From Candidatus Saccharimonadales bacterium (GTDB taxonomy: Bacteria; Patescibacteriota; Saccharimonadia; Saccharimonadales; UBA4665), in assembly GCA_044227625.1 (NCBI GenBank), contig JBGAWL010000001.1, forward strand, positions 6,735-70,734: 64,000 nt of DNA, read 5' to 3'. The notes beneath the pieces are model-generated. The model saw only the letters and a list, made by a program, of their open reading frames with translations, was not told the DNA's origin and ran no database searches. Within the stretch, counting starts at the first letter, position 1; each line of letters starts with the position of its first letter. Of this stretch, positions 44,264-61,017 are shown piece by piece. A program made the position numbers and the translations under genes.

Positions 44264-44488
44264 TCACACCACGATGCCCCCGCCTAGCACGGCATCCCCT
44301 TCATACAGAACAGCCGATTGGCCGGGAGTGATGGCGCGAACAGGGCTATCCAGGTGAAGTTCGCCTCTGTTGTTTTGGGCATCCCAGGTGAAACAGGCCG
44401 GAATGAGCTCGGCGCGGTAGCGCGTACGCACAGGGTACGTTTTTCCTTCTTTTGGTGGCCTTGTTGAACTATCCCTCCCCGCCACCAA
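44264..44488 (-). pseudogene. mnmA: 3' fragment of the tRNA 2-thiouridine(34) synthase gene mnmA (last ~55 codons only)
   Basis: VRTRYRAELIPACF...LDSPVRAITPGQSAVLYEGDAVLGGGIVV matches the conserved MnmA C-terminus (RYR...PGQ-x-AV-x-Y...LGGG-x-I). About 300 N-terminal codons are absent from the window. Confidence 0.8.
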
Positions 44489-44489
44489 G

Positions 44490-45250
44490 CCACCTCGGCT
44501 TGGTGCTTTCAGGTGGTCGCCATTGCCTTTGGTATACCTAGGAGGGTAGGTTCGTTGAGGGCATGAATACGTATCTTCACTAGGTTCTGCTGTCGCCTCA
44601 GTGTTCTAGCGGTGATGTTCTGCCCATCTATCAGCGACAGACGAATCTGTCTACGCAACAGTAGGGATAAGGTTGGTACTGACATCAACACCAAGATGTA
44701 CCTTACGCTCGGTTCGCCGCTTACTCCAGCTATGCTTCTTCACCTTCCACTCGCCTTCACCGTACAGTTTGACGCCAGTACTGTCTATGGCAATATGCAG
44801 ACCTTCGCCAGCACGCAGCGCCGCTTTGACTCGGGCGCTCATGGGTACGGTCAAGTCCTCAGCTCGGTGTGATAGGGTTGACTGGTCAGGGCTTTTAGGT
44901 GAGCACAGCCGAGCATGAAGAGGAGTGACTGGACAAAACCTTCAGTTGCCCAAAGCGGGAGATGCTAGATAGCTTATATGGTAAGCGCTGTCTGAATGGC
45001 TATGTCGCTGTACATCTTCGGGTGACCCGCTTTTCCAGGCTGGACTGGTTTGTTCCATGCAGCAAGGACGTCAATGTTAAACCATAAGGTAACAGAACCA
45101 CGGGCAACCAGCGATGCGTTATATTCCTTCCAGTTTGTCACTTTGTATTGTTTCTTCTGAGGTATGTACGCCTCTGTCTTGGGTATAGTGTCTGTGTTTG
45201 TGTTCATACCCTACGGGATAGCGCTGAGAGAGGGATAGCTCAACAAGGCC
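44490..45250 (-). mobile_element. Decayed, truncated IS5-family (IS903 group-like) insertion sequence
   Basis: Transposase fragments lie in three frames. These are 44974-45207 (YKVTNWKEYNASLVARGSVTLWF..), 44651-44854 (AIDSTGVKLYGEGEWKVKKH..RKVHLGVD) and 44509-44694. The terminal sequence GGCCTTGTTGAGC (minus strand, ending at 45250) resembles the IS903 IR GGCTTTGTTGA. The far end is missing. Confidence 0.75.
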
Positions 45251-45338: not shown

Positions 45339-45875
45339 GTGAAAACACAGGAACCACTAGCGGGATTATGGAAAGGGTCAGCTGAGATTGGATTGAGTTT
45401 ATTAGTTTTAAGCGGTTGTCAAGGAGGAGTATCCGGACCTGCTGCTTCGTCCACTCCTGTCACTCCCAAAACTGTATCCGTACAATCACCAAACTACATT
45501 GTTACGCCAACTCAGCTGGGGCGGGACCCACTGGGGCCCCTTGAACGCACACGGGAAACCCTCTACCTAGAAACCAGCATGGGGGGGATGACGCTTCGGG
45601 CCGCTGACCCAAATATCTACGCGCGTCCAGACATGCTTACTTTTTCTTGCGACGGAAAAACAGTCATTACCCGTGCGAGCTGGAAAGACAATGTTGTTGA
45701 AGCGCAACCAATTAGCGCTGCATTCACCACACTTTGCGCTGACAGGGAAATATCCGGCACAGAAGCCCGGCGGTGGGTAGAAGCACATCCTGCTGCACTG
45801 CCAACACTGTTCGACGGTCGGTTGGCAGAAAACGGTTCTCACATTGCAGTCATCGATACGGGCGTATCACAGTAG
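45339..45875 (+). CDS. Hypothetical lipoprotein
   Basis: GTG start with SD GAGAGGAG and lipobox LLVLSGC. No family recognised. Confidence 0.55.
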   Translation: MKTQEPLAGLWKGSAEIGLSLLVLSGCQGGVSGPAASSTPVTPKTVSVQSPNYIVTPTQLGRDPLGPLERTRETLYLETSMGGMTLRAADPNIYARPDMLTFSCDGKTVITRASWKDNVVEAQPISAAFTTLCADREISGTEARRWVEAHPAALPTLFDGRLAENGSHIAVIDTGVSQ

Positions 45876-45907
45876 AGGTACCGCATGATATCACTTTTAG
45901 TAGGTAC

Positions 45908-46876
45908 ATGATGGGGGGACGAAATACACCAGAATATTACTCGGTTATACCTGCGGTGCGGCACAACCAGGGTCGAAGTTTTGGCAGGCCCATTCTAGTT
46001 GGCCTTATTGGAGGGGGTATCGCTATTGCGTACAGCATGTACAATACTCCCGGTGACGTGCTACCTCACGCCCCGGTGCCTCCTGTCTCCTCGGGCCAAA
46101 ATACTAGCATAACACCAACAGCCAATGCTACCACACAAGGGTCAAAAAAAAGACTTGTGGTTCTTATTGACCCCGGACACGGCACGCCGCCAGCAGGAAC
46201 AGAAGATGTTCGAGACCCAAAAACCGGCTATAAAATGGCTGACTACAAAAATACTCCCGAAACGAAAGAAGTTTACGATGTTTCTCTGCTTGTAAAAAAG
46301 ATGCTCGAAAGCTCCTACGATGTTCGTTTAACAAAGCAGCACGTCAATGAAGGGCCAAGCCTGCGGAAACGAGCAGAAATTGCAAATGTACTCCGTCCCG
46401 CCATCATGGTAATAATACATACCGACCACACACAACCAGACACCATGCAATGGGTTACACCGCAAAAAGTCGGCAATTATCGAGGAATTGAATCAGTTGC
46501 CGACGGAACACACCGATTTACCTTTACCAATAAAGAAACGGCATGCATAAGCGCCGCTTACGCAGAAAAAATTGTTAACGCACGAACCAATGCTAGTGGC
46601 ATACAAGCCCAGTTACATGATTTGAATTTTACCAATAAGCGTGAGGATGGTAGCGTAATCAACAATATTAAACGCGCCCCAGGTAATATCAGTTGGATAC
46701 AACTCCTCGGTACTGAAGTTCCCGCCATATACAATGAATACGGTGGGAAAAACGGTGACGACAGTACCATCGAACTCACTCAAGAACAAAAATTAGGGTA
46801 TGCAACCGGTATCGCCAAAGGTGTCATAGCTGCCTTGACCGATAGAGACGCAATTATTCAAGGCTGCCAGCAATAG
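45908..46876 (+). CDS. N-acetylmuramoyl-L-alanine amidase (Amidase_3-like), membrane anchored
   Basis: TM helix followed by LVVLIDPGHGTPPAG...EVYDVSLLVKKMLE..YDVRLTK...LRKRAEIAN..AIMVIIHTD, which fits the Amidase_3 pattern. I chose the start at MMGGRN; the ORF is open from 45773. Confidence 0.7.
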   Translation: MMGGRNTPEYYSVIPAVRHNQGRSFGRPILVGLIGGGIAIAYSMYNTPGDVLPHAPVPPVSSGQNTSITPTANATTQGSKKRLVVLIDPGHGTPPAGTEDVRDPKTGYKMADYKNTPETKEVYDVSLLVKKMLESSYDVRLTKQHVNEGPSLRKRAEIANVLRPAIMVIIHTDHTQPDTMQWVTPQKVGNYRGIESVADGTHRFTFTNKETACISAAYAEKIVNARTNASGIQAQLHDLNFTNKREDGSVINNIKRAPGNISWIQLLGTEVPAIYNEYGGKNGDDSTIELTQEQKLGYATGIAKGVIAALTDRDAIIQGCQQ

Positions 46877-47125
46877 CACGTCTATACTTTAGCCCTAGCC
46901 AATTTTTCTAGGCTGGATGCTTTAGCTATTACTGCCCCGCGAATCTCTTACCTGAAAATTGACGAGTTTCGTTCATTTTACCTGCACGTCGCTGCGTCGG
47001 CACGACACGTAAAGAAGGACCTTTGTCGAGCTATGCCTTCAAAGACGTGGCGATGGGTGAGAATAGCCTATGGCTATTCGCAAGATAATCTTCCGATAAA
47101 AGGTTTAATTGTAATCATGCACGAG

Positions 47126-47342
47126 TTTCGCACTCGCCCAGTCTGCTCAGCTACAGAGCATCTGACACCGCTGAATTCTCTCCCCACCCAAAGAATCATT
47201 TCAATTCTTTCAATTCCTTGGAGACGCCGGTTTAACTCCTGCACATTTTTCCTTTTCCAGTACTTACTTCACCGTACTCTAAGCACGGTTCGTGTCGTGA
47301 CCAACGGAGAAAATGCACCTGGGTTTAAAGGACGAAATTTGT
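47126..47342. repeat. Left copy of a ~217-bp inverted repeat (IR-L)
   Basis: It is the reverse complement of 55055-55270. By hand alignment I found three substitutions and one single-base indel. It lies in a 557-bp non-coding gap between convergent genes. Confidence 0.95.
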
Positions 47343-47433
47343 GTCATGGAGTTAGGGGGGCCGTAGAATGCAGTCGCCGGATGTGACGAGCTCGCCCATA
47401 TAGAATTGGGTTTACATTGAGCGGGGTTGTTGA

Positions 47434-48759
47434 CTATCTTTTGCTTGCAGTTAGCGCACGCTTGTAGCCAGCGGCAACGGCATCATTAATGGCAACGATG
47501 GCCGTACGATACCTTGTGAGAACATTATTCTTTTCTTTGCCGTCGACTTGCTGACTAAGACTGTCATTGGTCAAAACCACAACCCACATACCAGTTACTG
47601 GATCGACCTCAAAACTTGTTCCGCTCCAACCTGTGTGCCCAAATGCAGATTCGCTCATCTGCTTGCTATATGCGTTCCCGATATTAATACGAAATCCTAA
47701 CCCATAGGTACTGCCAGGACGTGGTGTTGCCATCTCTGCAACCTGTTCGGGCGTTAGAATTTGCTGACCATTCACATTGCCCTTGTTCGCAAGCATAGCT
47801 GCAAACTTGCCCAAATCTTCTGCTGTAGCAAATAGGCCGGCATGCCCCGATACACCATCTTGGATGCGGGCAAGCCGGTCTTGAGGAACGCAGGTAAGTA
47901 TTTCTTTTTGATCTGCATCAGGTGAAGTTGGAGCACACGTTCTGCTTGATGCGGGCGGATTGAACATCGTGTTCTGCATACCAAGCGGAGAGAGTATGGT
48001 TCCATCCATCACAACCTCAAATGGTTGCCCCGTAGCGCCACTTGCGGCCATGCCTAAAAGAGCATAGCCAAAATTTGAATAGCGGTGCTTCCCGGGCGAT
48101 AAGGTAGGAGCCTGCGCCAGCAGATTCTTCTGAGCTTGTTGTTTTGAAGTTGCACCGTCCATAACCGGCCCGTAGCCCGTTTCGTCTTCAGACGGAAGTC
48201 CGCTCGTATGGGATTGGAGCTGGTCCACAGTCACTCCAGATTTAGTGCCGCCCGTATAGGCTGGGAGGTATGTAGAAACCAGTTTCTTACGATCCACCTT
48301 ACCCAATGTCTCTAGTCTCATGAATGTCGCACTGGTGATTGGCTTCTGTACTGATGCTAAATCGTACAACGTCTCGCCTGCCTTTACAGCTTTGCCGCCG
48401 CCAAAACGGGTAGTGCCCGCACCAACAATAACCAAACGCCGTTCGCCGCAGCCGGCTACGACGGTCGCTCCAGGAGCGGTGTGATTTTTCAAAATTTGAC
48501 TCGAAATGATACCAAGAATGTCTTTGGCCATCTGATTTGCCAAGTCAGGATTATCCTTAGACCATGCCTCACAGAGCCCTGTGGGCGCTGGTGCCGCCGT
48601 AGCATTACCATTACCAAGCGCAGACCAGGGAACCCCACCATCGCCTTCTCCTCCGTTGATGACTTTTGTGGTACAGCCCGCCATGGCTACCGCGCCGAAG
48701 ACAGCGGCGCCAATAACCACAATACGACCAAAAGTTGACTCTCCTGCTATTCGGTTCAT
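47434..48759 (-). CDS. Serine hydrolase, beta-lactamase/DD-peptidase family (AmpC-like), lipoprotein
   Basis: Lipobox AMAGC, SxxK (SVQK), YxN (YSN) and HTG in place of KTG. The pattern fits PF00144. Confidence 0.8.
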   Translation of the reverse strand: MNRIAGESTFGRIVVIGAAVFGAVAMAGCTTKVINGGEGDGGVPWSALGNGNATAAPAPTGLCEAWSKDNPDLANQMAKDILGIISSQILKNHTAPGATVVAGCGERRLVIVGAGTTRFGGGKAVKAGETLYDLASVQKPITSATFMRLETLGKVDRKKLVSTYLPAYTGGTKSGVTVDQLQSHTSGLPSEDETGYGPVMDGATSKQQAQKNLLAQAPTLSPGKHRYSNFGYALLGMAASGATGQPFEVVMDGTILSPLGMQNTMFNPPASSRTCAPTSPDADQKEILTCVPQDRLARIQDGVSGHAGLFATAEDLGKFAAMLANKGNVNGQQILTPEQVAEMATPRPGSTYGLGFRINIGNAYSKQMSESAFGHTGWSGTSFEVDPVTGMWVVVLTNDSLSQQVDGKEKNNVLTRYRTAIVAINDAVAAGYKRALTASKR

Positions 48760-48793
48760 ATTATTTGATCTTTTTTATACCATCCTATGACTA

Positions 48794-50281
48794 CTAATCG
48801 ATGACGAGTTCTGCGTCAACAATTTCTTTATCGGTATCATTTGGCACAATTGGCGCACCCAGCAACTGCTCTGCTTGCTTACCGAGTACCGCTGTGTCGG
48901 CCAGCCAACTAACTGCACGAGGCAGATCCTGACGTTGAATCGTTACTGTTTGTACAACCGTACCAGCCGCATCCACATAGCCTTGCGCTTGGTCAGTACC
49001 ACTATTTAACAGCGCAATTATGCTATCATTATCTGTTCCGCGGCGTAGTGGTACTGCGGTAACTTCAAATAGTCCCTGCTTGGTTGGGTCAGGTTCTGCG
49101 CCTGGCCGCAAAATAGGAGTCTGGAGATAGGCCATATTTAGCCCCACTACCAAAACTCTGTCTTTGTCGGTTTGATCAGGAAGGCGAACAACGGTATGGT
49201 GAAGTGCCGTGTTCACGTTGCCTTCAGGACGAGTAAGTTCAACACCATAATCCGCCCTGCCCTGCACCAATCCACCTGTGCGGTCTGTTTCGCCCTGTAT
49301 AATTTGTGAGGCAGCGTGAGCATCGACGTAACAGGTTGCCGTTTCTGACGTCTCACCGTCTGTAACTAATTGCATAACCTCGAGTTTCAGCCCCAGCTTG
49401 GTTGCCGTCGGCGTATTATTCAGATTATCCACCGCAAGCCGAACAGCTTGCACTTGGCTGACCCCCCCGTATAAGGTGGCCTCTACACCAGCCTGTACGG
49501 CTCTTTCTTTCAGCAAACGCATTGCTTCATTAATCGCATGCTGGAACGCGTTAGGCCTATCCTCTTGGTGCTTGACAGTCACGCCACGAACATCGTTGTT
49601 AAAATTTGTAGAAAAATACCCTTCCGCAAGCAGAGCTGCCCTCCTGGGTAAGTATGGCCCTACAGGACTGTGCTGAATCTGCCAATTCATCACATCAATA
49701 ACAGTTCGTCCAGCACCAGCCGCGGCATGCCGTCTCCAAACCTCAGGATCGGCCACAGGTACACCATCGAATTTTCCGTCTGCTGCACGACGCCGTCGTT
49801 GGCTTCGAGTCAGTCCATCACTTACACCATCTGTGCTACTCGTCTCAGCAGCGCCAATGACTGCGAGGGCATTACCAGTAGATTTGGGTGGTTCTAGCAC
49901 CTCCATAACGCCATTTCCTGAGCCTTCTCTCAAAGCGTCTCGAAAGGCGCTGACAGCGTTTCCCAAAGTGGCAGCTATCCTAACCAAACGTGGTTCATTA
50001 TCACCGGAATGGCGTGCACTGCGAGTCTGAGGCGACGAGCCTTCTCCAAATACGGTAAGGCCGGCCGTATCACCACCGCCTAGCTCCTGCTGAAGCTCTG
50101 TCGTACCCTGAGCTGGGTCAGCAAGACCAGCTTCACCATCACTGGGCGGGCCTGCCTTGCGAGAACCACTATCACTCCTTTGATTCCCCGTTGACGTATA
50201 TTCCCCACCCACACCCAATCCTAACGCATCTCCGCCTAATACCAGTCCCGGACGCCGATCACCACCGTTTAGAATCGCCAT
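48794..50281 (-). CDS. Hypothetical protein (ORFan); Gly-rich, probably disordered N-terminal third
   Basis: 495 aa with strong SD AGGAGGA. No signal peptide and no motif I recognise. Confidence 0.6.
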   Translation of the reverse strand: MAILNGGDRRPGLVLGGDALGLGVGGEYTSTGNQRSDSGSRKAGPPSDGEAGLADPAQGTTELQQELGGGDTAGLTVFGEGSSPQTRSARHSGDNEPRLVRIAATLGNAVSAFRDALREGSGNGVMEVLEPPKSTGNALAVIGAAETSSTDGVSDGLTRSQRRRRAADGKFDGVPVADPEVWRRHAAAGAGRTVIDVMNWQIQHSPVGPYLPRRAALLAEGYFSTNFNNDVRGVTVKHQEDRPNAFQHAINEAMRLLKERAVQAGVEATLYGGVSQVQAVRLAVDNLNNTPTATKLGLKLEVMQLVTDGETSETATCYVDAHAASQIIQGETDRTGGLVQGRADYGVELTRPEGNVNTALHHTVVRLPDQTDKDRVLVVGLNMAYLQTPILRPGAEPDPTKQGLFEVTAVPLRRGTDNDSIIALLNSGTDQAQGYVDAAGTVVQTVTIQRQDLPRAVSWLADTAVLGKQAEQLLGAPIVPNDTDKEIVDAELVID

Positions 50282-50854
50282 AACCTTCCTCCTATTTCGT
50301 TACGCCTTGCAGAGTTTATTCACTCAATTACTCTAGATAATCATATGGTAGTTCCAATGTCAAATAAATTGTGCATTCCCGTAACCACAGATACGCCCCC
50401 GTTCCTCTGCCCTTCAGCAAGCGCAGTTTTTTTCACTGACCGACGATGTCAGATACTCCCGGTCTGAAAAGTTTCGCCGAAGCAAAGTCGTACCCATCAC
50501 GAAGATACCCAGCCCACGGCCCCATCTCTAGCTCACTGGCCAGAGCGTTTGCAAAGCGCCGACTTACTTTCAACACGTGTGCGTTCAACCCATGTTGGAC
50601 GTAATTAGTATGTGATGGTAATGATGAAAAAAATGTCTTTTTTAAAAATACTATTGCATTCTGGAAAAAAAAGTAGGAGACTATGTTTATAGCGTGTACT
50701 TCGTGTCGCCTATAGGGTGTCTAGGGGGGTCTTGGCTTACCGTAAAGTCGCAGTGAGTGCTTGACGGTCACAGCTCCAGACACCGGATAGCTCATGTCTA
50801 CCTAGAGTACCGTGTATTGCGCGTAAAATTAGTTATATAGGTATAGATTTCACC

Positions 50855-52798
50855 ATGGCAAGAACTCAAGCGGAATCATTAACCATAGCCGGCGTGTCTT
50901 TGGCGCCGACTGACCAACCATCAGCACACGAGCAGGCAGATAGTCCGCTACCTCTGGCAACGTTTCTAGACCTACATCCAGGTGCGCGGCGTAGTCGTAT
51001 TATCGGCTATACTGCACTTGCTGAGCACTGGGATGGCCACAGATTTATGCCGGCGGCTGCTGAGCATCTTGTCAGAGACAGTCAGGGCGCTCCGCTCCAT
51101 CTAGGGCTTAGCGGTACTATGGCACGGCTCACAGTACCCAGGAGCGTGCAAAAGGAGGGGCTCACTCCGGAAACCAATGTATGGTCATTTGTACACGGTG
51201 ACTGGGGGCCAGGGCGTATATACATGGCGGCCGAGGGTTTACGCGCTCAGGGAGCAAATAGGCCTGACATCTTCAGCGGGATGGGCGGCATATATGCTAT
51301 TTTTGCTCGAGTTCGCGCATCCTCACGGTATCGGGATGGCGAGCAACCAGACTGGATGCTTACAGACGTACAAACAACAAACGACCCCTTCCCGTACGAC
51401 ACCTTTGTCGATGACCGAGCGAGTGGAGGTAGACACAGCGAATTTATGAATGGAATGCTGGGCAACGAGGTAAGCCGATTTGTCGAAAAGAACGGCGGTC
51501 GGCGCGCTGTTAATCGCATGCTCGACGGCGTTATCCAATTTGGCGGCGAGCTCCATGCTCGTCTCTCGGATATACCGAATGGGAAAAAAGGCGTTTCTCT
51601 AGAGAACATTATGTCAGAAGCTTTGCGGGGCAGTCCGGAAAAAGTAAAGGATTTCGTCAACGCCTACATAACGTATAACTCTCCGGGCGGTGAAAAAAAT
51701 CCATTTTCTCTCCGAATATTTTCCCGAGCTTGCCATATTCTGGAAGATGCAGAGAAAACCGCAGACGGGAAGAAAGGTGGCCGCTACTATATACACACCT
51801 TGAGGGATCATGTCCGTCGTGAAGTGTTACAGGCATTCCTGCACGCCCAGGCTATTGTACTCATAAATAGAGAATTAAACGCCCGCGCTGCTAGTGCGGG
51901 ACACGCGTTTATTACCCCTTTCCCGTTTAGCGTGACAATACGCGACTCTTACGACGCAGAATTCGCACAACTGCTTGAATGTATCGACACCGGTGATTAC
52001 ACCGATGCGGCGCAAGCTACTGCCAAGAAGTTCGGGGGTGACGTCGCATACCACGGACATTTGAGCGTATTCTCGCACGACAAAAACGCACACCCGCTAA
52101 TGGTTACACAAACTCTCAAGCCAAATGAACAAGGACAGAGCGTCGGCCAGTTTAGTTATGAGGGTAACACATATCCGGTCCAGCACGGGGGCATAACAGC
52201 ACGCGACATTATACGGTCACTATTTGTGAGAACTGGAGCGCCGCTTATAGACGGGGTTGTGGCGCGGTGGCAAACTCCTACTGTACACCGCGGAAGCACT
52301 GCCCATGAGGGCACAGAGTGTTTAGCCGTCGATTTAACCAAAGCACCTGCCAAGATTCTTCGGTGTATTGCAAGCGCAGGCGGGCTCACGGGGGGTCAAC
52401 GAGCCTATTCTGAAAGAATGTTACTGAGCGACATTATGGCCATGCCAACGCCCGGAGATAAGTACCACATAGCCGTTGAGACATGTGCCACCGGACCGAT
52501 GGTGCGTGCGGTCATTCATGAGGGTTCAGGCATGCAATGGGTGGAGTCTGGAGGTACCATCGTCGTTTTACCAGCTACGATTGTCAATGCAAAACAGCTA
52601 ACTGGCCAAAGATTAGGCCGGGACGAGAGAAAGACTCTCAGGGACAGCTACGCAGTTGCCAATGTTGCCACAAAGAAAGGGCCCATCACTGGAAAGGTTA
52701 TAGCCGGAGCGGCTCTACACGGTGGCGTACTCCACATGAGCGCCTCAGACAGGGCAACCGTAGAGGTAATGCCAAATAGGTTTATGAAAAATGAATAA
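50855..52798 (+). CDS. Hypothetical protein (ORFan), large and predicted cytoplasmic
   Basis: 647-aa uninterrupted ORF with no signal peptide, no TM helix, no nucleotide-binding or catalytic motif recognised, and no SD. TATAGA lies 7 nt upstream of the ATG. Confidence 0.6.
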   Translation: MARTQAESLTIAGVSLAPTDQPSAHEQADSPLPLATFLDLHPGARRSRIIGYTALAEHWDGHRFMPAAAEHLVRDSQGAPLHLGLSGTMARLTVPRSVQKEGLTPETNVWSFVHGDWGPGRIYMAAEGLRAQGANRPDIFSGMGGIYAIFARVRASSRYRDGEQPDWMLTDVQTTNDPFPYDTFVDDRASGGRHSEFMNGMLGNEVSRFVEKNGGRRAVNRMLDGVIQFGGELHARLSDIPNGKKGVSLENIMSEALRGSPEKVKDFVNAYITYNSPGGEKNPFSLRIFSRACHILEDAEKTADGKKGGRYYIHTLRDHVRREVLQAFLHAQAIVLINRELNARAASAGHAFITPFPFSVTIRDSYDAEFAQLLECIDTGDYTDAAQATAKKFGGDVAYHGHLSVFSHDKNAHPLMVTQTLKPNEQGQSVGQFSYEGNTYPVQHGGITARDIIRSLFVRTGAPLIDGVVARWQTPTVHRGSTAHEGTECLAVDLTKAPAKILRCIASAGGLTGGQRAYSERMLLSDIMAMPTPGDKYHIAVETCATGPMVRAVIHEGSGMQWVESGGTIVVLPATIVNAKQLTGQRLGRDERKTLRDSYAVANVATKKGPITGKVIAGAALHGGVLHMSASDRATVEVMPNRFMKNE

Positions 52799-52816
52799 TA
52801 GGTACATGTACGACCA

Positions 52817-54010
52817 GTGGGGGCTATTCATATGAGGGCTGAGGCACAACCTGTTAGCTCAGGTGCTGGCGAAGTGAGTAGTGTTACCCCGACCAATACA
52901 CAAACTCTAGTTGTAGGTCTTGGAGACGGCAGCACTCATGCTCAGCTGACATATTTAGGCAGAGATGCCGTAGTTGAGGTACCCTTCGACACTTTGCTAT
53001 ACCCTAACGCAACAAATCCCAGCAGTACCACTACATGTATCATGCCGACATTTGCTCACCCACAGTTACCGGTCGAGTTTACTTCACCGCCAACTGATTT
53101 GTCCGCCATGGGTCAAGTTGCCTCCGGAAAGCACCCTGTTATCAGCCCTGGGGTACCTGGCGCTGACAAACTTTATGCCACCCCAGTAAGTCAACTAACT
53201 ACTGAAGATCTTGGCGAGCTTATTATGGCTTCGACTGGGCGTATACCTTCAGCTATTACCTTTGAGGATTTACTTGCAGTGCAAGCTTCTGGAGCGGTCT
53301 CGTTCCACGTGGACCCTGAAGATCCCGTAAAAGAAGCGACTCTGGTTGGGTTCCCTGCCACTAAAGGCCCTGCCGTGGTGGCTATAGCGCTGCTACAAAA
53401 CGACGAGCAAAGAACGCAGGCGCTTCGTGTTGTACCTCTTGCGCAAGCGTCGTCGACTGAGACAGCTCCCCTTCCGGACACTGCGGGGGTCGTACGGTAC
53501 TTAGGTACGCTCGTCATCGCTGCAGCGCCGCCTTCGCCAGACACGGACAAAGAGAATTCTACAATGCTTGTATGCGGACCAGACGTTCATCTTCTCGGTG
53601 ACCAGCGCACCGTTGCGCAGCAACATGGCATGTTCGTCTTGACCGGACTAACACCCGAAGCAGCAGCTGCCTACGGTACCCCTCTGTTTACGCAAAAATA
53701 TGAACATCCACCTGTAGACCTCGAGCGCATAGACCCTTCACTGGTTGACCCAGTACGAGAGTGGCTCAACCTACCAACACTAAGTATAGCCACGGCCAAG
53801 ACATTGCCTAACAGGGAAAGTCATACGGAGTCTATGCCTCCTGGTCGGCTGCCAGGTGATACCCCGGCGGGTACGCCCAACGGTGGCGTAGCAACCAAAA
53901 ACGAGCCAGCTGATAGGCTTACGGAGCTGTTATTGGGCGATGATTATGCTAAGCAAGAAGCACCCTGTTTGACTGTACAGCCTGGCAGACGAGGAAATAG
54001 ACATGTATGA
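52817..54010 (+). CDS. Hypothetical protein (ORFan)
   Basis: 397-aa ORF 18 nt after the previous stop. The start may be ATG at 52832. No motif recognised. Confidence 0.55.
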   Translation: MGAIHMRAEAQPVSSGAGEVSSVTPTNTQTLVVGLGDGSTHAQLTYLGRDAVVEVPFDTLLYPNATNPSSTTTCIMPTFAHPQLPVEFTSPPTDLSAMGQVASGKHPVISPGVPGADKLYATPVSQLTTEDLGELIMASTGRIPSAITFEDLLAVQASGAVSFHVDPEDPVKEATLVGFPATKGPAVVAIALLQNDEQRTQALRVVPLAQASSTETAPLPDTAGVVRYLGTLVIAAAPPSPDTDKENSTMLVCGPDVHLLGDQRTVAQQHGMFVLTGLTPEAAAAYGTPLFTQKYEHPPVDLERIDPSLVDPVREWLNLPTLSIATAKTLPNRESHTESMPPGRLPGDTPAGTPNGGVATKNEPADRLTELLLGDDYAKQEAPCLTVQPGRRGNRHV

Positions 54011-54087
54011 CCTATCCTTATACCAGAAGATGAAATACGGCCTTTTGGCCAGAAGACGTAACTGCGAAAGAGCAAAGGAGATATAGT

Positions 54088-54957
54088 ATGCCGACACCAA
54101 GAGGAAAGACAGCGCCAGCGATAGTAGCCCCACCCAAACGTGGCCAAAGGGTTGGATATCAGGATGCCCACGTACAGGGAAGCGGCGATGCGAGTACCGC
54201 ATTTGGAGATGGCACATTTGATACACAGGTATCACCAAAAGATTTTCGGAAGCGATATGGTGCCCTGCCTCTAGGGTTTATGTTGCATAAGCTCTTTGTT
54301 TATCCATATAAGGCAGTAGTACAACGAGAAGGCTTGCGTGCCGATAGTGCGTACAATGCCGGATTGCGCAATACGCAGATTAACATTACCCACACGGGCC
54401 GCTTGCTTAGCTTATTGGTTCTCGGATCGGATGCAAGGCTTACCTATAAGCGAAATGGGCTTCGGCACCAACGACTGCGCAGCACCACGACAGCAGTAGC
54501 CTTGGTGGTTGCAGCGGGCGTCGGGCTGAACATCAATAGCGCAGTCCAAGCAGGCGGAAAACAGGGTTCAGAGGGCATACCGGCAAACATCCTCCCCGGT
54601 GGAAACTCTCAGGGCGGCGTCATTGGTGTTGATGGTGTCTCCCCCAAGAAACAGACCCGCAAGACAATCTTCGAACTGTCTGGGGGTAAAATTAGCTGTG
54701 CGTCTACAATTGCCCTTGGTGTCGAAGAGGCTGATGTAGCCACACCCGATACTTCACCATTACTGACTAAGATGTCAGCCGTAGCAAATGAACCATTCAC
54801 ACAACTAACCCAACGCCAACAGGCCGGATTTCTTTCGCAGGTATTGAGCGATGAAACCCTAAATCCAAACGCATTTGCTACTGCTATTACAAACCCGCCA
54901 AGTCTTGCAGGAAACAGTATTTTGGTACCTTCCGACTGTACCGGTCTCGGGCTATAG
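54088..54957 (+). CDS. Hypothetical single-pass membrane protein (ORFan)
   Basis: 289 aa with strong SD AAGGAG, a basic N-terminal region, and one TM helix (TTTAVALVVAAGVGLNI). Confidence 0.55.
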   Translation: MPTPRGKTAPAIVAPPKRGQRVGYQDAHVQGSGDASTAFGDGTFDTQVSPKDFRKRYGALPLGFMLHKLFVYPYKAVVQREGLRADSAYNAGLRNTQINITHTGRLLSLLVLGSDARLTYKRNGLRHQRLRSTTTAVALVVAAGVGLNINSAVQAGGKQGSEGIPANILPGGNSQGGVIGVDGVSPKKQTRKTIFELSGGKISCASTIALGVEEADVATPDTSPLLTKMSAVANEPFTQLTQRQQAGFLSQVLSDETLNPNAFATAITNPPSLAGNSILVPSDCTGLGL

Positions 54958-55054
54958 CGAGGGGGCCTTTCGTCAACTCTTACGAGCAAGCCCAAACTCA
55001 ACAATAATATATCTGGTTATCGGGGCGCTTGCCCCTCTGGGGCAGGCGCATTCT

Positions 55055-55270
55055 CACAAATTTCGCCCTTTAAACCCAGGTGCATTTTCTCCGTTGGTCA
55101 CGACACGAACCGTGCTTAGAGTACGGTGAAGTAAGTACTGGAAAAGGAAAAATGTGCAGGAGTTAAACCGGCGTCTCCAAGGAATTGAAAGAATTGAAAT
55201 GATTCTTTGGTGGGGAGAGAATTCAGTGGTGTCAGATGCTCTGTAGCTGAGCAGGCTGGGCGAGTGCGAA
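55055..55270. repeat. Right copy of the ~217-bp inverted repeat (IR-R)
   Basis: It is the reverse complement of 47126-47342. It lies in a 501-bp non-coding gap between convergent genes. Confidence 0.95.
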
Positions 55271-55458
55271 GCTCGCGATTCTCTTACTCCGACTTCGGCA
55301 CACTATCAACGCAGTTGATGATCTACAGATAGTAGTTGAGATGATTCATCGACCCATCTCGCCAACCGCCACGCGTTTAAAAACAGGTTTCAAGAATGGG
55401 CTTCCGAGAATGGTTACCGTTTAGGTTGGGGTAGTTCGCCCCGCGCTTCATCATTATC

Positions 55459-56073
55459 TTACTTTTTAAAGTAGTCCGTCATACTTCGTGACGGTGTTGG
55501 AGACGCTGTGGCAGGGGAACGTTGCTGACAGGGTGTTGTTGGCGCGAGAGGGGGGCCACAGAACGGGAGGTCGCCACCTGGCAGCGTGAAGTAGTCCTGC
55601 ATAGTTGGTTTTGCGAGACCACAGTTTACGTCAGCCGCCTCAATTGACGCATTTAATGCTGCCTTGGTCGCCTCTGCTAAGGTACCTGTCGCAGGTAGCT
55701 TTTTATTCACGTTGAACGTGTTTATTGCTGCAACTGTTTTTGGGTCAAATATGCCATTGACTGTCAAGGTACAGCCAATATTTCGTAATCGACTCTGAAG
55801 AACAGTGACCGCATCACCGGTGCTGCCCGGTCCTAATATTGCAGTCCGGCTTGTCGTTGGTGCCGAACCGACAGTCTTGTCAGGCGAAGCCACAGATCCG
55901 GGGCTTGTCGCTCCGACTGCATTCGGTCCAGCCATGCCCGTCTGAGGTACGTAGCTGATACCTCTTGCACAGCCCCCAGCAGCAAAAACCGCAGCGCTAG
56001 CTAGTCCGCATGCAACTCCTCTACGTACGATTCGTGACCCTGGTTTTTCAATCCCTTGTTGCCTAGAAGTCAT
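55459..56073 (-). CDS. Peptidoglycan-binding domain (PG_binding_1) lipoprotein
   Basis: Lipobox FAAGGC. GSTGDAVTVLQSRLRNIGCTLTVNGIFDPKTVAAINTFNVNKKLPATGTL fits the PF01471 pattern. Confidence 0.7.
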   Translation of the reverse strand: MTSRQQGIEKPGSRIVRRGVACGLASAAVFAAGGCARGISYVPQTGMAGPNAVGATSPGSVASPDKTVGSAPTTSRTAILGPGSTGDAVTVLQSRLRNIGCTLTVNGIFDPKTVAAINTFNVNKKLPATGTLAEATKAALNASIEAADVNCGLAKPTMQDYFTLPGGDLPFCGPPLAPTTPCQQRSPATASPTPSRSMTDYFKK

Positions 56074-56140
56074 ATTAAATCGCTCCTTTCATTAGTTGGT
56101 ATTACTCTTTGATTGACTTGCATATTGCCTCCCTACGTTA

Positions 56141-58942
56141 TTATTCTATCCTAAGGTCATTATCGGCACTGGAGAGACCTGGTATCTTTGGCATTTTGTC
56201 TGGGTTCTGAAGGTAGTTGTTCATACGTTCTACAACCTGGTTGGCATAAGTCGCTATTGAAGGATACTCCTTACCTGCTGCCATTTGCTTTTTATAGGGA
56301 TTAACGCCCTTTTCTTTCCAGTGCTCGCCCGCGTACCAGGCTGTTGCTACATCAAACCAGATCTCATCTGTGGACGCCTGAGGATATTTCTTTTTGAATT
56401 TTTCGAAGAGCCGCTGCATATCTTTAGCGCCCTGCTCGTACTGAAATGCAGCTGGGGCTAAGTTTGCAGTCTTGTAGCCCCCACGACCGTTCTCACCCCA
56501 TGTACTAGGCATGTACTGGAAGAGGCCGCTTGCCCCTATGTCATTCACTACGGTGGGATTGTTACCAGATTCCTGCGTAGAGACACTGTGCACGAACGCT
56601 TCAAGATGTACGTCGTGGGAGGTTGGGGGGGGGTTAGCGCTTTCCGCCCCATCTGAGCTGCCCCCATCCGTCGCGGGTGTAAGCGCTTCAGATCCGGAGC
56701 CTGGGTCCGCGACTACCGGGATAAACACTCCGGGGTCTGCTGTGCCAGCTCCGTCTGTAGACGTTTCGTTCGGCTTATCGACAACAATAATTGGCGCATT
56801 ATCTGTTGATGTGACTGCAACTACTTGTGTTGGCGTAGGCACTGTCAGCACAGTCGTGTCACCACCGTCAGATTCAATAGGGGCAGCGGTGGTCGCTGTA
56901 GTTCCCTGTGATGATTCCGGCGGTGATGTGGTGACCGTTCCAGTATCTGTCGAAATGGGTGGTTGTACAATGCCCTCAACGGGGGCAGGTATGGCAAACG
57001 GTGAGCCAAAACCGTCCCACATTGTCACCGCAGGCAGACCAGTTGGAGTCTCTGGCTTTGCGCCATTTGTTTGTTCTGTTTGGGAGGGAACATTAGACTC
57101 TTTCGCAGCACTGCTCAGACTAGGCTCGGACGTACCGGGTGCATGGGTTACTCGTGCGTCAACCGTCCCAAATCGCGTGCCAACATATCTCAAACCGTCA
57201 TCCTTATCCCATGAGTGAAATACCGTCGTGTATTTGTCATCCCAGTTCCCGTCCACCGACCAGTAGCCTTTTTTTGTAATCGCAAATATACGAGCTGTGT
57301 GTCGCCCAAAATTCCCATCATAGTACATGAGGTAATCGCCGATGCCGACTTTCCCGTTCATATGGTCGCCTGTCAGAAAATCTTTGGCGGAGTAGACCGC
57401 CGAACCAGGTTCCGCCTTCAGGGCATTAACAAGGTACTGCGTATACCACATTCTGCCGTTGGGCTGAACCCCTTGGAGTTTTGTGTCAAATGGCATCTTT
57501 AGAGCCAGATCACCCCCTGTGGCAGCCGCGACACACCACGGCCAGGCTTTGCCAGATTTTCCGTCCATAAACAACTTTGAAGGAGGACCTGCATTCGCAC
57601 CAACTTCTTTGATTTTTAGAGCGAGCATATCCTTTGACCACTGGATGAATTCTTTGCGGTAAGCTTGTTTGGTAATTACCTGGCCAAGGCCAATTTCCGT
57701 TGTAGCACTAGCCACCGGGGTGGCTAGCTTTGTCTCGACATTGGCCGTAGTTGGCATGACTAACCCAGTTAGAGTCTTTACGGCTGTCGGCAGGGGGACT
57801 ACACTCGGTTGCAAATCTGGACCCAGTGCCGCTGGCGCCGATGAGAATACCTCACTGGCTACAAGAGGTGCTGATACTGATAGCTCAGTGCCGGTCACTG
57901 ATGACGCTAGCTCATGCTGGCCTGCTTCCAGCGGCAGGACTATAGCATCCTGTGGAGGAGCGAACCCAGCCAAAACCTCAATATTCCCCGCACCGCCGCT
58001 TAGGGTATCGAGCTTTCCCGGTTGTTGCGCAGCCTCGGAGCTAGTGGTCTGAGTCCCAGGGAACGACGACGCTACAGGAGAAGCGTCAAGAAGGGTTGTC
58101 TGTAGAGGTGCCCCGGCCGCTTGTTCTAAGGAGGCGGGGCTAGTACTGGGCTCATGAACAACGGTGGTTAAGGGTGGGAGCACAGCACCTGTGCCAAGAA
58201 CAATTTCTGGAATAACAGGTGCTGCAGACGTACTCAAAATTGGTTCAATGGTGGCTCTTTCAAGTCCTAGCCCATTTGCAACAAGGCTTGAAATGACCCC
58301 AGCCGGACCAACAGTGCCTGTCACCGTAATTTCATCCGCCACTAACCCGACGTTATTGGTGTACAGCGCCGTCACGGCTACCTCTTGATCCTTGGGAGGA
58401 TCGACAAGCTTCTCGGAAGCGGTTACTCCCAATACTATGGCTGCCGCACCACTTCCTGGGGTGGCTTTAGATACTACCGCATTACTTTCCAACGCAGGAG
58501 CTACCCCGCCTTCGTCTTCCGAACTTTTTTTGCCAAAAGACGGAGCCATTTGCACAACATTCACTGCGGGAAGCACGACATCCCTGTTTACAGTCGGTGG
58601 CAACAAGACTTTGTCAGTGACTGCAGCCGGTAGGGCAACAACGCTCGAAGTGGCGCGCACAACATCCCATGAAACCGACCCCTGTGCCTGAATCTGATTG
58701 CCGGAAGGCGGTATCATACCACCTGTGGTAAAAGAAACAATCAAGGCACCAGTTATAGCCAGGTTGACTTTGTCCGCTGATGTTGCAACACTACGGTCAA
58801 CAATAACCCTGTCCAGGGGCAGCCCCGGTTGCTCCGGGAGGGCTAATAATACTGGCAGGTTTTTTTTGTTCATTGTATGTCCCCTATTAGTTTGACAATA
58901 TGCTTTTTGTTTGTTTCCCTTATATTCGTATGTACTGTACAA
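56141..58942 (-). CDS. Large exported bifunctional cell-wall hydrolase: CHAP/NlpC-like domain plus C-terminal lytic transglycosylase (SLT) domain
   Basis: A long Ala/Val/Thr/Pro-rich N-terminal region. CHAP-like Cys/His (WPWCVAAA ... GRHTARIF). SLT motif STQESGNNP...ASGLFQYMPSTW. The probable start is MNKKNLP at 58873. Confidence 0.75.
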   Translation of the reverse strand: MYSTYEYKGNKQKAYCQTNRGHTMNKKNLPVLLALPEQPGLPLDRVIVDRSVATSADKVNLAITGALIVSFTTGGMIPPSGNQIQAQGSVSWDVVRATSSVVALPAAVTDKVLLPPTVNRDVVLPAVNVVQMAPSFGKKSSEDEGGVAPALESNAVVSKATPGSGAAAIVLGVTASEKLVDPPKDQEVAVTALYTNNVGLVADEITVTGTVGPAGVISSLVANGLGLERATIEPILSTSAAPVIPEIVLGTGAVLPPLTTVVHEPSTSPASLEQAAGAPLQTTLLDASPVASSFPGTQTTSSEAAQQPGKLDTLSGGAGNIEVLAGFAPPQDAIVLPLEAGQHELASSVTGTELSVSAPLVASEVFSSAPAALGPDLQPSVVPLPTAVKTLTGLVMPTTANVETKLATPVASATTEIGLGQVITKQAYRKEFIQWSKDMLALKIKEVGANAGPPSKLFMDGKSGKAWPWCVAAATGGDLALKMPFDTKLQGVQPNGRMWYTQYLVNALKAEPGSAVYSAKDFLTGDHMNGKVGIGDYLMYYDGNFGRHTARIFAITKKGYWSVDGNWDDKYTTVFHSWDKDDGLRYVGTRFGTVDARVTHAPGTSEPSLSSAAKESNVPSQTEQTNGAKPETPTGLPAVTMWDGFGSPFAIPAPVEGIVQPPISTDTGTVTTSPPESSQGTTATTAAPIESDGGDTTVLTVPTPTQVVAVTSTDNAPIIVVDKPNETSTDGAGTADPGVFIPVVADPGSGSEALTPATDGGSSDGAESANPPPTSHDVHLEAFVHSVSTQESGNNPTVVNDIGASGLFQYMPSTWGENGRGGYKTANLAPAAFQYEQGAKDMQRLFEKFKKKYPQASTDEIWFDVATAWYAGEHWKEKGVNPYKKQMAAGKEYPSIATYANQVVERMNNYLQNPDKMPKIPGLSSADNDLRIE

Positions 58943-58944
58943 TC

Positions 58945-59817: not shown

Positions 59818-59885
59818 GTCGCAAGCCCCTCGCTACCGGTGAATTTATTGACGTCCAAATTATCATATCATAGCCTCCGCAACCC

Positions 59886-60983: not shown

Positions 60984-61017
60984 ACAGGTAGACCCTCCCG
61001 TAATACGGTTACTATAC

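What the first reader, a model, noticed from the sequence alone, without database searches (positions are those of the whole stretch)
47126..55270. 7.7 kb ORFan cassette bracketed by near-identical ~217-bp inverted repeats
Two copies of a ~217-nt sequence sit in inverted orientation at 47126-47342 and 55055-55270. My manual alignment found only three substitutions and one 1-nt indel.

The 7712 bp between them hold two divergent operons that start from a 573-bp control region. The minus-strand operon encodes a 495-aa ORFan and an AmpC-like serine-hydrolase lipoprotein. The plus-strand operon encodes 647-aa, 397-aa and 289-aa ORFans.

I recognise no transposase, integrase, invertase, reverse transcriptase or ATPase motif in any of them. 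Repeats this long and this similar allow homologous-recombination flip-flop of the whole segment. They also resemble the long terminal inverted repeats of some large transposable elements.

I see three competing readings:
- A mobile element whose recombinase is one of the unrecognised large proteins.
- An invertible segment.
- A co-regulated envelope or host-interaction module.

This is the best candidate in the window for an undescribed system.
Basis: partly seen in the sequence, partly recalled or inferred. Interest (0 to 1): 0.8.

Follow-up and report, generated by a model that had tools for sequence, protein, structure and literature searches.

The report
Two MITE copies flank conserved genes
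The two inverted repeats are two separately inserted copies of a small non-coding transposon (MITE) on either side of an old, vertically inherited gene cluster of a Saccharimonadales (CPR) bacterium, so this is a possible recombination-driven inversion and not a new mobile cassette.

Summary
A 224-nt element (47120-47343) and its 223-nt reverse complement (55055-55277) are 97.7% identical and are the only long repeat in the window.

Each copy has imperfect terminal inverted repeats and its own perfect 5-bp target-site duplication: TCATG on the left, AGAAT on the right. The 5-mers outside the whole unit do not match. So these are two independent insertions of a MITE-like element, not the ends of one large transposon.

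Eleven consecutive genes (45.3-61.2 kb) keep the same order and orientation in a distant Saccharimonadales MAG (27-65% amino-acid identity). That MAG has no repeats and short intergenic gaps. A complete genome (CP064993) keeps the ORFan core. The cassette is therefore chromosomal and vertically inherited. No recombinase was found.

Public assemblies of near-identical strains show both the window arrangement and both reciprocal junctions of the inverted arrangement. This is what recombination between the copies would produce. However, the ~144-nt identical core is longer than the assemblers' k, so chimeric contigs are not excluded.

Four ORFans belong to a narrow Saccharimonadales-specific set. 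The 647-aa protein gives a confident model with no PDB or viral fold match.

Verdict: an ordinary mechanism. The ORFan module is mildly interesting.

The parts
47120..47343 (+). Left copy of the MITE-like element (224 nt). Outer end CACGAGTTTCG, inner end reverse complement CACAAATTTCG.
   Evidence: nhmmer E = 4e-82. It has no Rfam match. The ORF across it (47033-47386) is frameshifted in the right copy and has no protein homologue.
47115..47119 (.). Target-site duplication of the left copy, outer side: TCATG.
   Evidence: Read directly from the sequence.
47344..47348 (.). Target-site duplication of the left copy, inner side: TCATG.
   Evidence: Read directly from the sequence.
55055..55277 (-). 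Right copy of the MITE-like element (223 nt), in reverse orientation.
   Evidence: nhmmer E = 6.5e-83.
55050..55054 (.). Target-site duplication of the right copy, inner side: AGAAT read on the element's strand, ATTCT on the + strand.
   Evidence: Read directly from the sequence.
55278..55282 (.). Target-site duplication of the right copy, outer side: AGAAT read on the element's strand.
   Evidence: Read directly from the sequence.
47434..48759 (-). 441-aa Beta-lactamase-fold serine hydrolase (PBP4B/AmpH-like) with a lipobox MAGC at residues 26-29.
   Evidence: Pfam PF00144 E = 2e-55. The best NCBIfam hits are PBP4B and AmpH, both below cut-off. Lipobox. The L007 homologue is 51% identical. 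In CP064993 the gene sits on the other side of the amidase gene.
48794..50281 (-). 495-aa ORFan with a low-complexity N-terminus and a conserved C-terminal ~330 aa ending in VDAELV.D.
   Evidence: No family hits. Only two homologue clusters in 5.8 billion proteins. 62% identical in L007. Weak similarity to its positional counterpart in CP064993. The AF2 model failed with pLDDT 34.
50282..50854 (.). Divergent control region. Two blocks, 50326-50372 and 50639-50694, are conserved with the distant relative.
   Evidence: blastn 83% and 88% identity to L006. Alignment with L007.
50855..52798 (+). 647-aa ORFan, first gene of the plus-strand operon. No signal peptide or transmembrane segment.
   Evidence: One homologue cluster by word-index search. 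23 representatives in 1.84 billion proteins by HMMER. AF2 pLDDT 83.8 and pTM 0.86. No Foldseek match in PDB or BFVD at E <= 0.001. No Pfam domain in any of 21 family members.
52817..54010 (+). 397-aa ORFan (392 aa as called by gene callers).
   Evidence: No family hits. 27% identical in L007. E = 7e-13 to its positional counterpart in CP064993.
54088..54957 (+). 289-aa ORFan with one transmembrane-like segment (residues 135-153) and a conserved C-terminal CTG.GL.
   Evidence: E = 2e-27 to its positional counterpart in CP064993.
45908..46876 (+). Left flank: N-acetylmuramoyl-L-alanine amidase (322 aa as called). It converges on the left MITE.
   Evidence: Pfam Amidase_3. 53% identical in L007.
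55459..56073 (-). Right flank: 204-aa PG_binding_1 lipoprotein. It converges on the right MITE and is followed by the 933-aa SLT protein at 56141-58942 (-).

Best explanation
The two repeats are two copies of a ~224-nt non-autonomous transposable element (a MITE).

Shown:
- Each copy inserted on its own into a convergent 3' intergenic region and made its own 5-bp target-site duplication.
- One insertion lies between the amidase gene and the Beta-lactamase-fold gene. The other lies between the 289-aa gene and the PG-binding gene.
- The 7.7 kb between them is part of an old, vertically inherited chromosomal neighbourhood of a Saccharimonadales bacterium. It is not cargo.

Inferred:
- Because the copies are inverted and share a ~144-nt identical core, RecA-type homologous recombination between them can flip the intervening segment.
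- The window arrangement is the original one. The flipped arrangement seen in some public contigs is the derived one.
- Both boundaries lie downstream of convergent genes and the segment carries its own divergent promoter region. Flipping should therefore be nearly neutral for expression.
- The five genes most likely act in the cell envelope or peptidoglycan remodelling, judged from their neighbours. The four ORFans' biochemical function is unknown.
For: Repeat and element anatomy:
- 222 nt at 97.75% identity, E = 7e-104.
- Homology stops exactly at perfect 5-bp direct repeats around each copy: TCATG|element|TCATG and AGAAT|element|AGAAT. The chance of two independent 5/5 matches is about 1e-6 for a fixed register.
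- Terminal inverted repeats match 11 of 15 in the window copies. They match 15 of 15 (CACGAGTTTCGCACT) in a third, diverged copy on metagenome contig L008, which is joined to an unrelated flank.
- The outer 5-mers of the whole unit differ, so there was no composite insertion.

Vertical inheritance:
- Eleven genes at 45339-61217 are colinear and co-oriented with JBASZU010000119.1, a Candidatus Saccharimonadales MAG, at 27-65% amino-acid identity.
- That MAG has no inverted repeat. Its intergenic gaps are 96 and 149 nt, against 558 and 502 nt here.
- CP064993.1 keeps 476(-)|679(+)-384(+)-263(+)|222(-)-879(-)... without repeats.
- L045 keeps the divergent pair.

No sign of a recombinase or foreign origin:
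- No GC anomaly.
- No recombinase in Pfam scans of the cassette, its flanks, or 21-41 kb.

Both arrangements in assemblies of 99.6-100% identical strains:
- Window type: L033.
- Flipped type: L013 (289-aa gene, MITE, amidase gene), L018 (Beta-lactamase-fold gene, MITE, 204-aa gene, SLT gene) and L035 (204-aa gene, MITE, Beta-lactamase-fold gene).
- In each, the crossover lies in the identical core.
- The duplications match only in the window arrangement, and relatives share that arrangement, so it is ancestral.
Against: - Only two copies lie in the window, and one more is known from a single 1.5-kb contig. Genome-wide copy number is unknown.
- No parent IS with these ends was found. The IS5-family remnant at 44457-45250 has unrelated ends.
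- The MITE was not found in the viral, plasmid or phage collections.
- The flipped junctions come from k-mer assemblies (k = 127, or Logan's small k). The identical core is longer than k, so they could be chimeras. A deep k141 assembly simply breaks at the repeats (L001 and L027).
- A weak match (E = 0.0024) to the inner 64 nt of the element lies in the orthologous gap of CP064993. This could mean an older history, or a site preference, that the simple model does not explain.
- The envelope role of the ORFans rests on neighbourhood only.
Confidence: 0.82

Rival explanations
1. The flipped-arrangement contigs are assembly chimeras. Only the window orientation exists in nature, so the repeat pair is structurally inert.
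For: - The identical core (about 47190-47331, ~144 nt) is longer than k = 127 and k = 141. No k-mer links the outer and inner variant sites.
- The best-covered assembly breaks at the repeats (L001 and L027).
- L008 joins the same left flank to a third, unrelated locus through the MITE. That is what repeat-induced chimeras look like.
- Three flipped against one window-type pass-through contig does not differ from a coin toss.
Against: - Both reciprocal junctions are seen, in three runs from at least two projects.
- From my own knowledge, not checked here: MEGAHIT's local assembly step uses reads anchored at contig ends, which favours correct traversal.
- 220-nt inverted repeats at 98% identity are adequate substrates for RecA recombination (general knowledge).
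Confidence: 0.4
2. The 224-nt sequence is a functional locus-associated element rather than a transposon. It could be a 3'-UTR RNA, a terminator module or a protein-binding site placed downstream of both divergent operons, and duplicated by a mechanism other than transposition.
For: - Both operons read out into the same strand of the element. The inner ends lie 91 and 98 nt after the two stop codons.
- That strand folds with z = -2.7.
- A hairpin shows compensatory-looking changes in the L008 copy.
- A weak match lies in the orthologous gap of CP064993, in the same orientation.
Against: - Perfect 5-bp direct repeats sit exactly at the homology boundaries of both copies, together with terminal inverted repeats.
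- The element is absent from the closer relative L007.
- It has no Rfam match even at E <= 1.
- A third copy lies next to an unrelated gene.
Confidence: 0.08
3. The whole 8.2-kb unit is a mobile element: either a composite, TIME-COMP-like transposon or a large element with long terminal inverted repeats. One of the ORFans would be its recombinase.
For: - Inverted MITE pairs can mobilise intervening DNA when a transposase is supplied in trans (PMC13367494).
- The ORFans are unannotated.
Against: - The outermost 5-mers differ (TCATG versus ATTCT), while each copy has its own duplication.
- The genes are colinear with their flanks in relatives that lack the repeats. They diverge about as much as the flanks do.
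- The Beta-lactamase-fold gene sits elsewhere in CP064993, so the MITE boundaries do not delimit a conserved unit.
- The 647-aa model matches no DDE, HUH, serine or tyrosine recombinase fold.
- There are no phage or plasmid hits.
Confidence: 0.03
4. A programmed invertible switch for phase variation, driven by a site-specific invertase.
For: Inverted repeats bracket a gene segment, and both orientations appear in assemblies.
Against: - No serine or tyrosine recombinase lies in or next to the segment, or in 21-41 kb.
- Both boundaries are in convergent 3' regions, so no promoter or coding sequence is exchanged.
- The repeats are recent insertions that relatives lack.
Confidence: 0.03

Closest known systems
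Prokaryotic MITEs (for example Correia, ERIC, RUP, Chunjie and QMITE; review PMC10969869)
   Same: - Small (224 nt) and non-coding.
- Has terminal inverted repeats.
- Direct repeats of the target flank each copy.
- Sits in intergenic regions downstream of genes.
- Has a predicted stable fold.
- Has more than one copy, with diverged variants.
   Different: - The parent IS is unknown.
- Only three copies are documented.
- It is not AT-rich (about 48% GC in a 50% GC genome).
- The host is a Saccharimonadales (CPR) bacterium. My literature searches found no MITE report for this group.
TIME-COMPs: segments bounded by two inverted Tn3-derived miniature elements, some with an inverted interior (PMC13367494)
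   Same: - Two ~220-250-bp miniature elements in inverted orientation bracket several kb.
- The elements make 5-bp direct repeats.
- Both internal orientations are observed in sequence collections.
   Different: - Here the 5-bp repeats flank each element and not the composite, so the unit did not transpose.
- The ends (CACGAGTTTCG...) do not look like Tn3-type 38-bp repeats starting with GGGG.
- The interior is conserved chromosomal DNA, not acquired cargo.
- No resolvase or res site was identified.
Chromosomal inversions by homologous recombination between inverted IS, rRNA or repeat copies
   Same: - Long, near-identical inverted repeats.
- The crossover lies inside the identical core.
- Reciprocal junctions are seen.
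- No dedicated recombinase is needed.
   Different: - The scale is small (7.7 kb).
- The evidence is from assemblies only.
Low-molecular-weight PBP / AmpH / PBP4B-type Beta-lactamase-fold hydrolases (for the 441-aa protein only)
   Same: Pfam PF00144 matches over the full domain (E = 2e-55). The best NCBIfam similarities are to PBP4B and AmpH.
   Different: All NCBIfam scores are below their curated cut-offs. It is a lipoprotein in a CPR genome. Its activity is untested.

Membership tests
MITE (miniature inverted-repeat transposable element) | Small size, with no transposase or other coding capacity | tested here: met
   The copies are 224 and 223 nt. The only ORF across the left copy is frameshifted in the right copy. 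It has no protein homologue and no Pfam hit.
MITE (miniature inverted-repeat transposable element) | Terminal inverted repeats | tested here: met
   CACGAGTTTCGCACT against the reverse complement of the other end matches 11 of 15 in the window copies. It matches 15 of 15 in the L008 copy.
MITE (miniature inverted-repeat transposable element) | Target-site duplication flanking each copy | tested here: met
   TCATG at 47115-47119 and 47344-47348. AGAAT at 55282-55278 and 55054-50, read on the element's strand. All lie exactly at the homology boundaries.
MITE (miniature inverted-repeat transposable element) | Multiple dispersed copies in the genome | tested here: inconclusive
   There are two copies in 64 kb. 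A third, diverged copy is joined to an unrelated flank in L008. The rest of the genome is not available. A possible relic lies in CP064993.
MITE (miniature inverted-repeat transposable element) | Filled site versus empty site in relatives | tested here: met
   The orthologous gaps in L007 are 96 and 149 nt with no element. The relative is distant, so the exact empty-site sequence cannot be aligned.
MITE (miniature inverted-repeat transposable element) | A cognate autonomous IS with the same ends | not testable with these tools
   None is present in the window. The IS5-family remnant at 44457-45250 has different ends, GGCCTTGTTGAAC....
TIME / TIME-COMP (Tn3-derived miniature elements and their composites) | Tn3-family type terminal repeats (~38 bp, starting GGGG; from my own knowledge of the family) | tested here: not met
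   The ends read CACGAGTTTCGCACTCGCCC and CACAAATTTCGTCC. There is no GGGG start.
TIME / TIME-COMP (Tn3-derived miniature elements and their composites) | 5-bp (or 6-bp) direct repeats made on insertion | tested here: met
   5-bp repeats surround each copy. The feature is as stated in PMC13367494.
TIME / TIME-COMP (Tn3-derived miniature elements and their composites) | Direct repeats flanking the outermost ends of the composite | tested here: not met
   The outer 5-mers are TCATG (47115-47119) and ATTCT (55278-55282) on the + strand.
Site-specific invertible DNA switch (Hin/Gin/Fim-type) | An invertase or recombinase gene in or next to the segment | tested here: not met
   Pfam, NCBIfam and PHROG scans of all genes from 45.3 to 61.6 kb and from 21 to 41 kb found none. 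The 647-aa fold has no recombinase match.
Site-specific invertible DNA switch (Hin/Gin/Fim-type) | Inversion exchanges a promoter or a coding segment | tested here: not met
   Both repeats lie between convergent stop codons: 46876/47434 and 54957/55459.
Composite transposon, or a large element with long terminal inverted repeats | Present or absent as a unit, with foreign composition or a variable location | tested here: not met
   Colinear with its flanks in L007, L006 and CP064993. GC content is as in the flanks.

The most novel reading that the evidence does not exclude
The conserved divergent ORFan core is a Saccharimonadales-specific envelope or host-interaction apparatus built from undescribed folds. 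It comprises the 495-aa gene facing the 647-397-289-aa operon. It always sits next to peptidoglycan-remodelling genes and has conserved promoter blocks.

The 647-aa protein supports this. It has a confident model (pTM 0.86) with no structural neighbour in PDB or BFVD.

A second part of this reading is that the MITE pair makes the module a genuinely flip-flopping segment in natural populations of a CPR bacterium.
Probability: 0.25. Interest if true: 0.55.

Novelty: new member of a known kind. Interest (0 to 1): 0.3.

Why it matters
This resolves an apparent "undescribed mobile cassette" into a familiar process: two MITE insertions, with possible recombination between them.

It is a useful caution for genome scans. 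Long inverted repeats around ORFans in CPR genomes need a check for target-site duplications and a synteny check before they are called mobile.

Three smaller points have some value:
- It documents an active-looking MITE family with a 5-bp duplication in Saccharimonadales. My literature searches found no MITE report for this group.
- It explains why short-read assemblies of this organism break, or may mis-join, at these points.
- It flags a narrowly distributed, conserved four-ORFan module. One member is confidently modelled and has no fold neighbour. This module is a concrete target for work on the cell envelope of epibiotic ultra-small bacteria.

Tried and rejected
Searches for further copies of the repeat:
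- Rfam at gathering thresholds over the window, and at E <= 1 over 44.0-47.5 kb, found nothing on the left repeat copy.
- I used the spurious 117-aa ORF across the MITE as a protein query to find other copies. There were no hits.
- Exact-core search of viral contigs, and blastn of the MITE against plasmids and phages, found nothing.
- A search for the 11-nt end motif in the window gave 15 hits against 8 expected. None was paired like an IS.

ORFan function:
- tblastn of the 647-aa protein against phages found nothing.
- AF2 on the 495-aa protein with only two sequences gave pLDDT 34, which is unusable, so no fold search was run.
- Profile searches of the 647-aa and 495-aa families against PDB sequences found nothing meaningful.
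- A Pfam scan of 21 members of the 647-aa family gave only one stray DUF hit.

Other attempts:
- Two guesses at the amidase start codon failed before 45908 worked. The contigs then found were short Logan contigs that stop in or before the MITE, so they added no junction evidence.
- Literature searches found nothing for Saccharibacteria with MITE, IS or inversion, or for PRJNA377521.

Rejected explanations:
- Intramolecular replicative transposition as the origin of the pair. It predicts the same unmatched pair of flanking 5-mers on both copies, and neither arrangement shows that.
- The IS5-family remnant as the parent element. Its ends are unrelated.

Full report
**Observation.** The inverted repeat is real. 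The repeat finder and a self-blastn give 47122-47343 against 55275-55055: 222 columns, 97.75% identity, E = 7e-104. Apart from a 54-nt palindrome at 7329-7382, it is the only long repeat in the window. Reading the sequence directly extends the homology by two bases. The left copy is 47120-47343 (224 nt) and the right copy is 55055-55277 (223 nt, reverse orientation). The copies differ at 47121, 47126, 47142, 47170, a CCC/CC indel at 47187-47189, and 47332. The 441-aa protein is a Beta-lactamase-fold hydrolase (Pfam E = 2e-55) with a lipobox. The 495-, 647-, 397- and 289-aa proteins have no match in Pfam, PHROGs, NCBIfam or PADLOC.

**What the repeat is.** Homology between the two copies stops exactly at perfect 5-bp direct repeats.
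- The left copy is flanked by TCATG at 47115-47119 and TCATG at 47344-47348.
- The right copy, read on its own strand, is flanked by AGAAT at 55282-55278 and AGAAT at 55054-55050.
- The element's ends are imperfect inverted repeats, CACGAGTTTCGCACT against CACAAATTTCGTCCT, matching 11 of 15.
- One exact-match scan of metagenome contigs with the element's core found a third, diverged copy (L008, OFRM01016493.1). Its ends are a perfect 15-bp inverted repeat, and its inner side abuts an unrelated PG_binding-like gene in 45% GC DNA.

Small size, no coding capacity, terminal inverted repeats, a target-site duplication on each copy, intergenic location and at least three distinct copies are the features of a prokaryotic MITE (feature list from PMC10969869). 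There is no Rfam match even at E <= 1 for the left copy.

The two outermost 5-mers of the whole 8.2-kb unit differ (TCATG versus ATTCT on the + strand). The unit therefore did not insert as a composite, which is the test used for TIME-COMPs in PMC13367494. Intramolecular replicative transposition is also excluded. It would leave the same unmatched pair of 5-mers on both copies.

**What the cassette is.**
- The 647-aa protein has a single homologue cluster in the word-indexed 5.8-billion-protein search (37% identity). It has 23 representatives in the exhaustive HMMER search.
- The contigs of its homologue (L006) and a GTDB genome contig (L007, JBASZU010000119.1, Candidatus Saccharimonadales MAG) show the same eleven genes in the same order and relative orientation as window 45339-61217.
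- That order is: 178-aa lipoprotein, amidase, Beta-lactamase-fold protein, 495, 647, 397, 289, PG_binding lipoprotein, SLT protein, 290 and 443. Amino-acid identity is 27-65% both inside and outside the "cassette".
- L007 has no inverted repeat. Its two corresponding gaps are 96 and 149 nt, against 558 and 502 nt in the window.
- The complete genome CP064993.1 (L044) keeps 476(-)|679(+)-384(+)-263(+)|222(-)-879(-)-286(-)-364(-), next to AlaRS and FtsA as in the window. There the Beta-lactamase-fold gene lies on the other side of the amidase gene, and there is no inverted repeat.
- A still more distant contig keeps the divergent pair (L045).
- GC content is flat across the region.
- The surrounding 21-41 kb encode ABC transporters, L25, UvrA, exonuclease I, Obg, a LysM-CHAP protein, FtsA and AlaRS, with no recombinase.

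The segment is therefore vertically inherited chromosomal DNA. The repeats are lineage-specific insertions, and the MITE boundaries do not delimit a conserved unit.

**Inversion.** The look-up of encoding contigs returned contigs from many public runs that are 99.6-100% identical to the window.
- Most stop inside the repeats. An 8017-nt k141 contig is exactly the segment between the two indels (L001).
- Four contigs pass through a MITE.
- L033 has the window arrangement (SLT, 204-aa gene, MITE, 289-aa gene).
- L013 (SRR5306404) joins the 289-aa gene through a MITE to the amidase gene.
- L018 (SRR5306409) joins the Beta-lactamase-fold gene through a MITE to the 204-aa, SLT and 290-aa genes.
- L035 (DRR236222) joins the 204-aa gene through a MITE to the Beta-lactamase-fold gene.

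The last three are the two reciprocal junctions expected if the segment is flipped. In each contig the alleles switch from one copy's type to the other's within the ~144-nt identical core. The duplications match only in the window arrangement, and both relatives share that arrangement. The window arrangement is therefore ancestral and the flipped one derived.

The caveat is serious. No k-mer of 127 or 141 nt spans the identical core, so a pass-through contig can be a chimera. L008, which joins the same left flank to a third locus, shows that such joins occur, whether in nature or in assemblers. I put real inversion polymorphism at roughly 55-60%. Read-pair or long-read mapping would settle it.

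If the inversion is real, it is passive homologous recombination. Both boundaries lie between convergent stop codons and the segment carries its own 573-nt divergent control region. No promoter or coding sequence is exchanged.

**The ORFans.**
- The 647-aa protein, modelled with a 21-sequence alignment, gives pLDDT 83.8 and pTM 0.86.
- Foldseek finds no match at E <= 0.001 in PDB or BFVD.
- A family profile finds nothing meaningful in PDB sequences, and no family member has a convincing Pfam domain.
- There is thus no support for a hidden DDE, HUH, serine or tyrosine recombinase.
- The 495-aa protein has only two homologue clusters, and its model failed.
- The 397- and 289-aa proteins have clear positional homologues in CP064993.
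- The 647-, 397- and 495-aa proteins lack signal peptides. The 289-aa protein has one transmembrane-like segment.
- Two blocks of the control region, 50326-50372 and 50639-50694, are conserved at 83-88% with the distant relative, although the proteins are only ~40% identical. They probably mark the two promoters or operators.

The neighbours are an amidase, a PBP-like hydrolase, PG_binding, SLT, a class A PBP and a polysaccharide deacetylase. From these I infer an envelope or peptidoglycan-associated role. This inference rests on context only.

**Comparison and verdict.** The structure works like a pair of inverted MITEs or IS copies that allow inversion by recombination. It looks like a TIME-COMP, but it fails that family's tests: its ends are not Tn3-type and no duplication flanks the composite. 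It is a new member of a known kind of element in an under-studied phylum. It brackets a conserved and still uncharacterised ORFan module. Interest is modest (0.3). The mechanism is ordinary, and the residual interest lies in the ORFan module and in a MITE family in CPR bacteria.

Noticed in passing
window 44264-45250: A decayed IS5-family element lies here. Transposase fragments at 44651-44854 and 44974-45207 (-) hit DDE_Tnp_1 and DDE_Tnp_1_5. They are bounded by 21-nt inverted repeats at 44457-44477 and 45230-45250 (95% complementary). The element abuts a lone MnmA C-terminal fragment at 44264-44488 (-), which hits tRNA_Me_trans_C with E = 1e-17. Logan contigs of the amidase flank all start at or after 45338.
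   Followed up: partly
L044 14276-14336 (CP064993.1): A weak nhmmer match (E = 0.0024) to the inner 64 nt of the MITE. It includes CACGCATTTAGCAC, which matches the end motif at 11 of 14 positions. It lies in the orthologous convergent gap, after the homologue of the 289-aa gene, and in the same orientation as the window's right copy. No second end or duplication was found. It may be an old relic or a sign of site preference.
   Followed up: partly
L008 1-1456 (OFRM01016493.1): This contig has a flank 100% identical to window 46987-47119. Its MITE carries left-copy alleles at the first three variant sites, then right-copy alleles, then a diverged inner quarter. An unrelated 136-aa PG_binding-like gene follows. 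It is either a MITE-mediated rearrangement or an assembly chimera.
   Followed up: partly
window 7329-7382: A palindrome with arms of about 26 bp (96% self-complementary by blastn): TGCGTCAAGGACGGACCCTGACGCAG TG CTGCGTCAGGGTCCGTCCTTGACGCA. It lies inside the long ORF 6851-8455 (-). It could be a foldback assembly artefact or a real hairpin.
   Followed up: no
window 27312-30129: uvrA is split into two overlapping ORFs. ORF 29143-30129 carries the N-terminal ABC and UvrA_inter domains. ORF 27312-29306 carries the UvrA DNA-binding and ABC domains. They overlap by 164 nt, which suggests a frameshift: either a sequencing error or a pseudogene.
   Followed up: no
window 50326-50372 and 50639-50694: Two non-coding blocks in the divergent control region are 83-88% identical to a relative whose proteins are only ~40% identical. 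The window also has ~200 nt between them that the relative lacks.
   Followed up: partly
window 50855-52798: The 647-aa protein family has 23 representatives among 1.84 billion proteins. It has a confident AF2 model (pTM 0.86) with no Foldseek neighbour in PDB or BFVD.
   Followed up: yes
whole window: The genome scan returned only a 37%-identical relative for the 647-aa protein, so the source genome may not be among the GTDB r232 species representatives. Near-identical DNA nevertheless occurs in many public runs (DRR2362xx, SRR318938xx, SRR5306404/9, ERR757000x and others).
   Followed up: no
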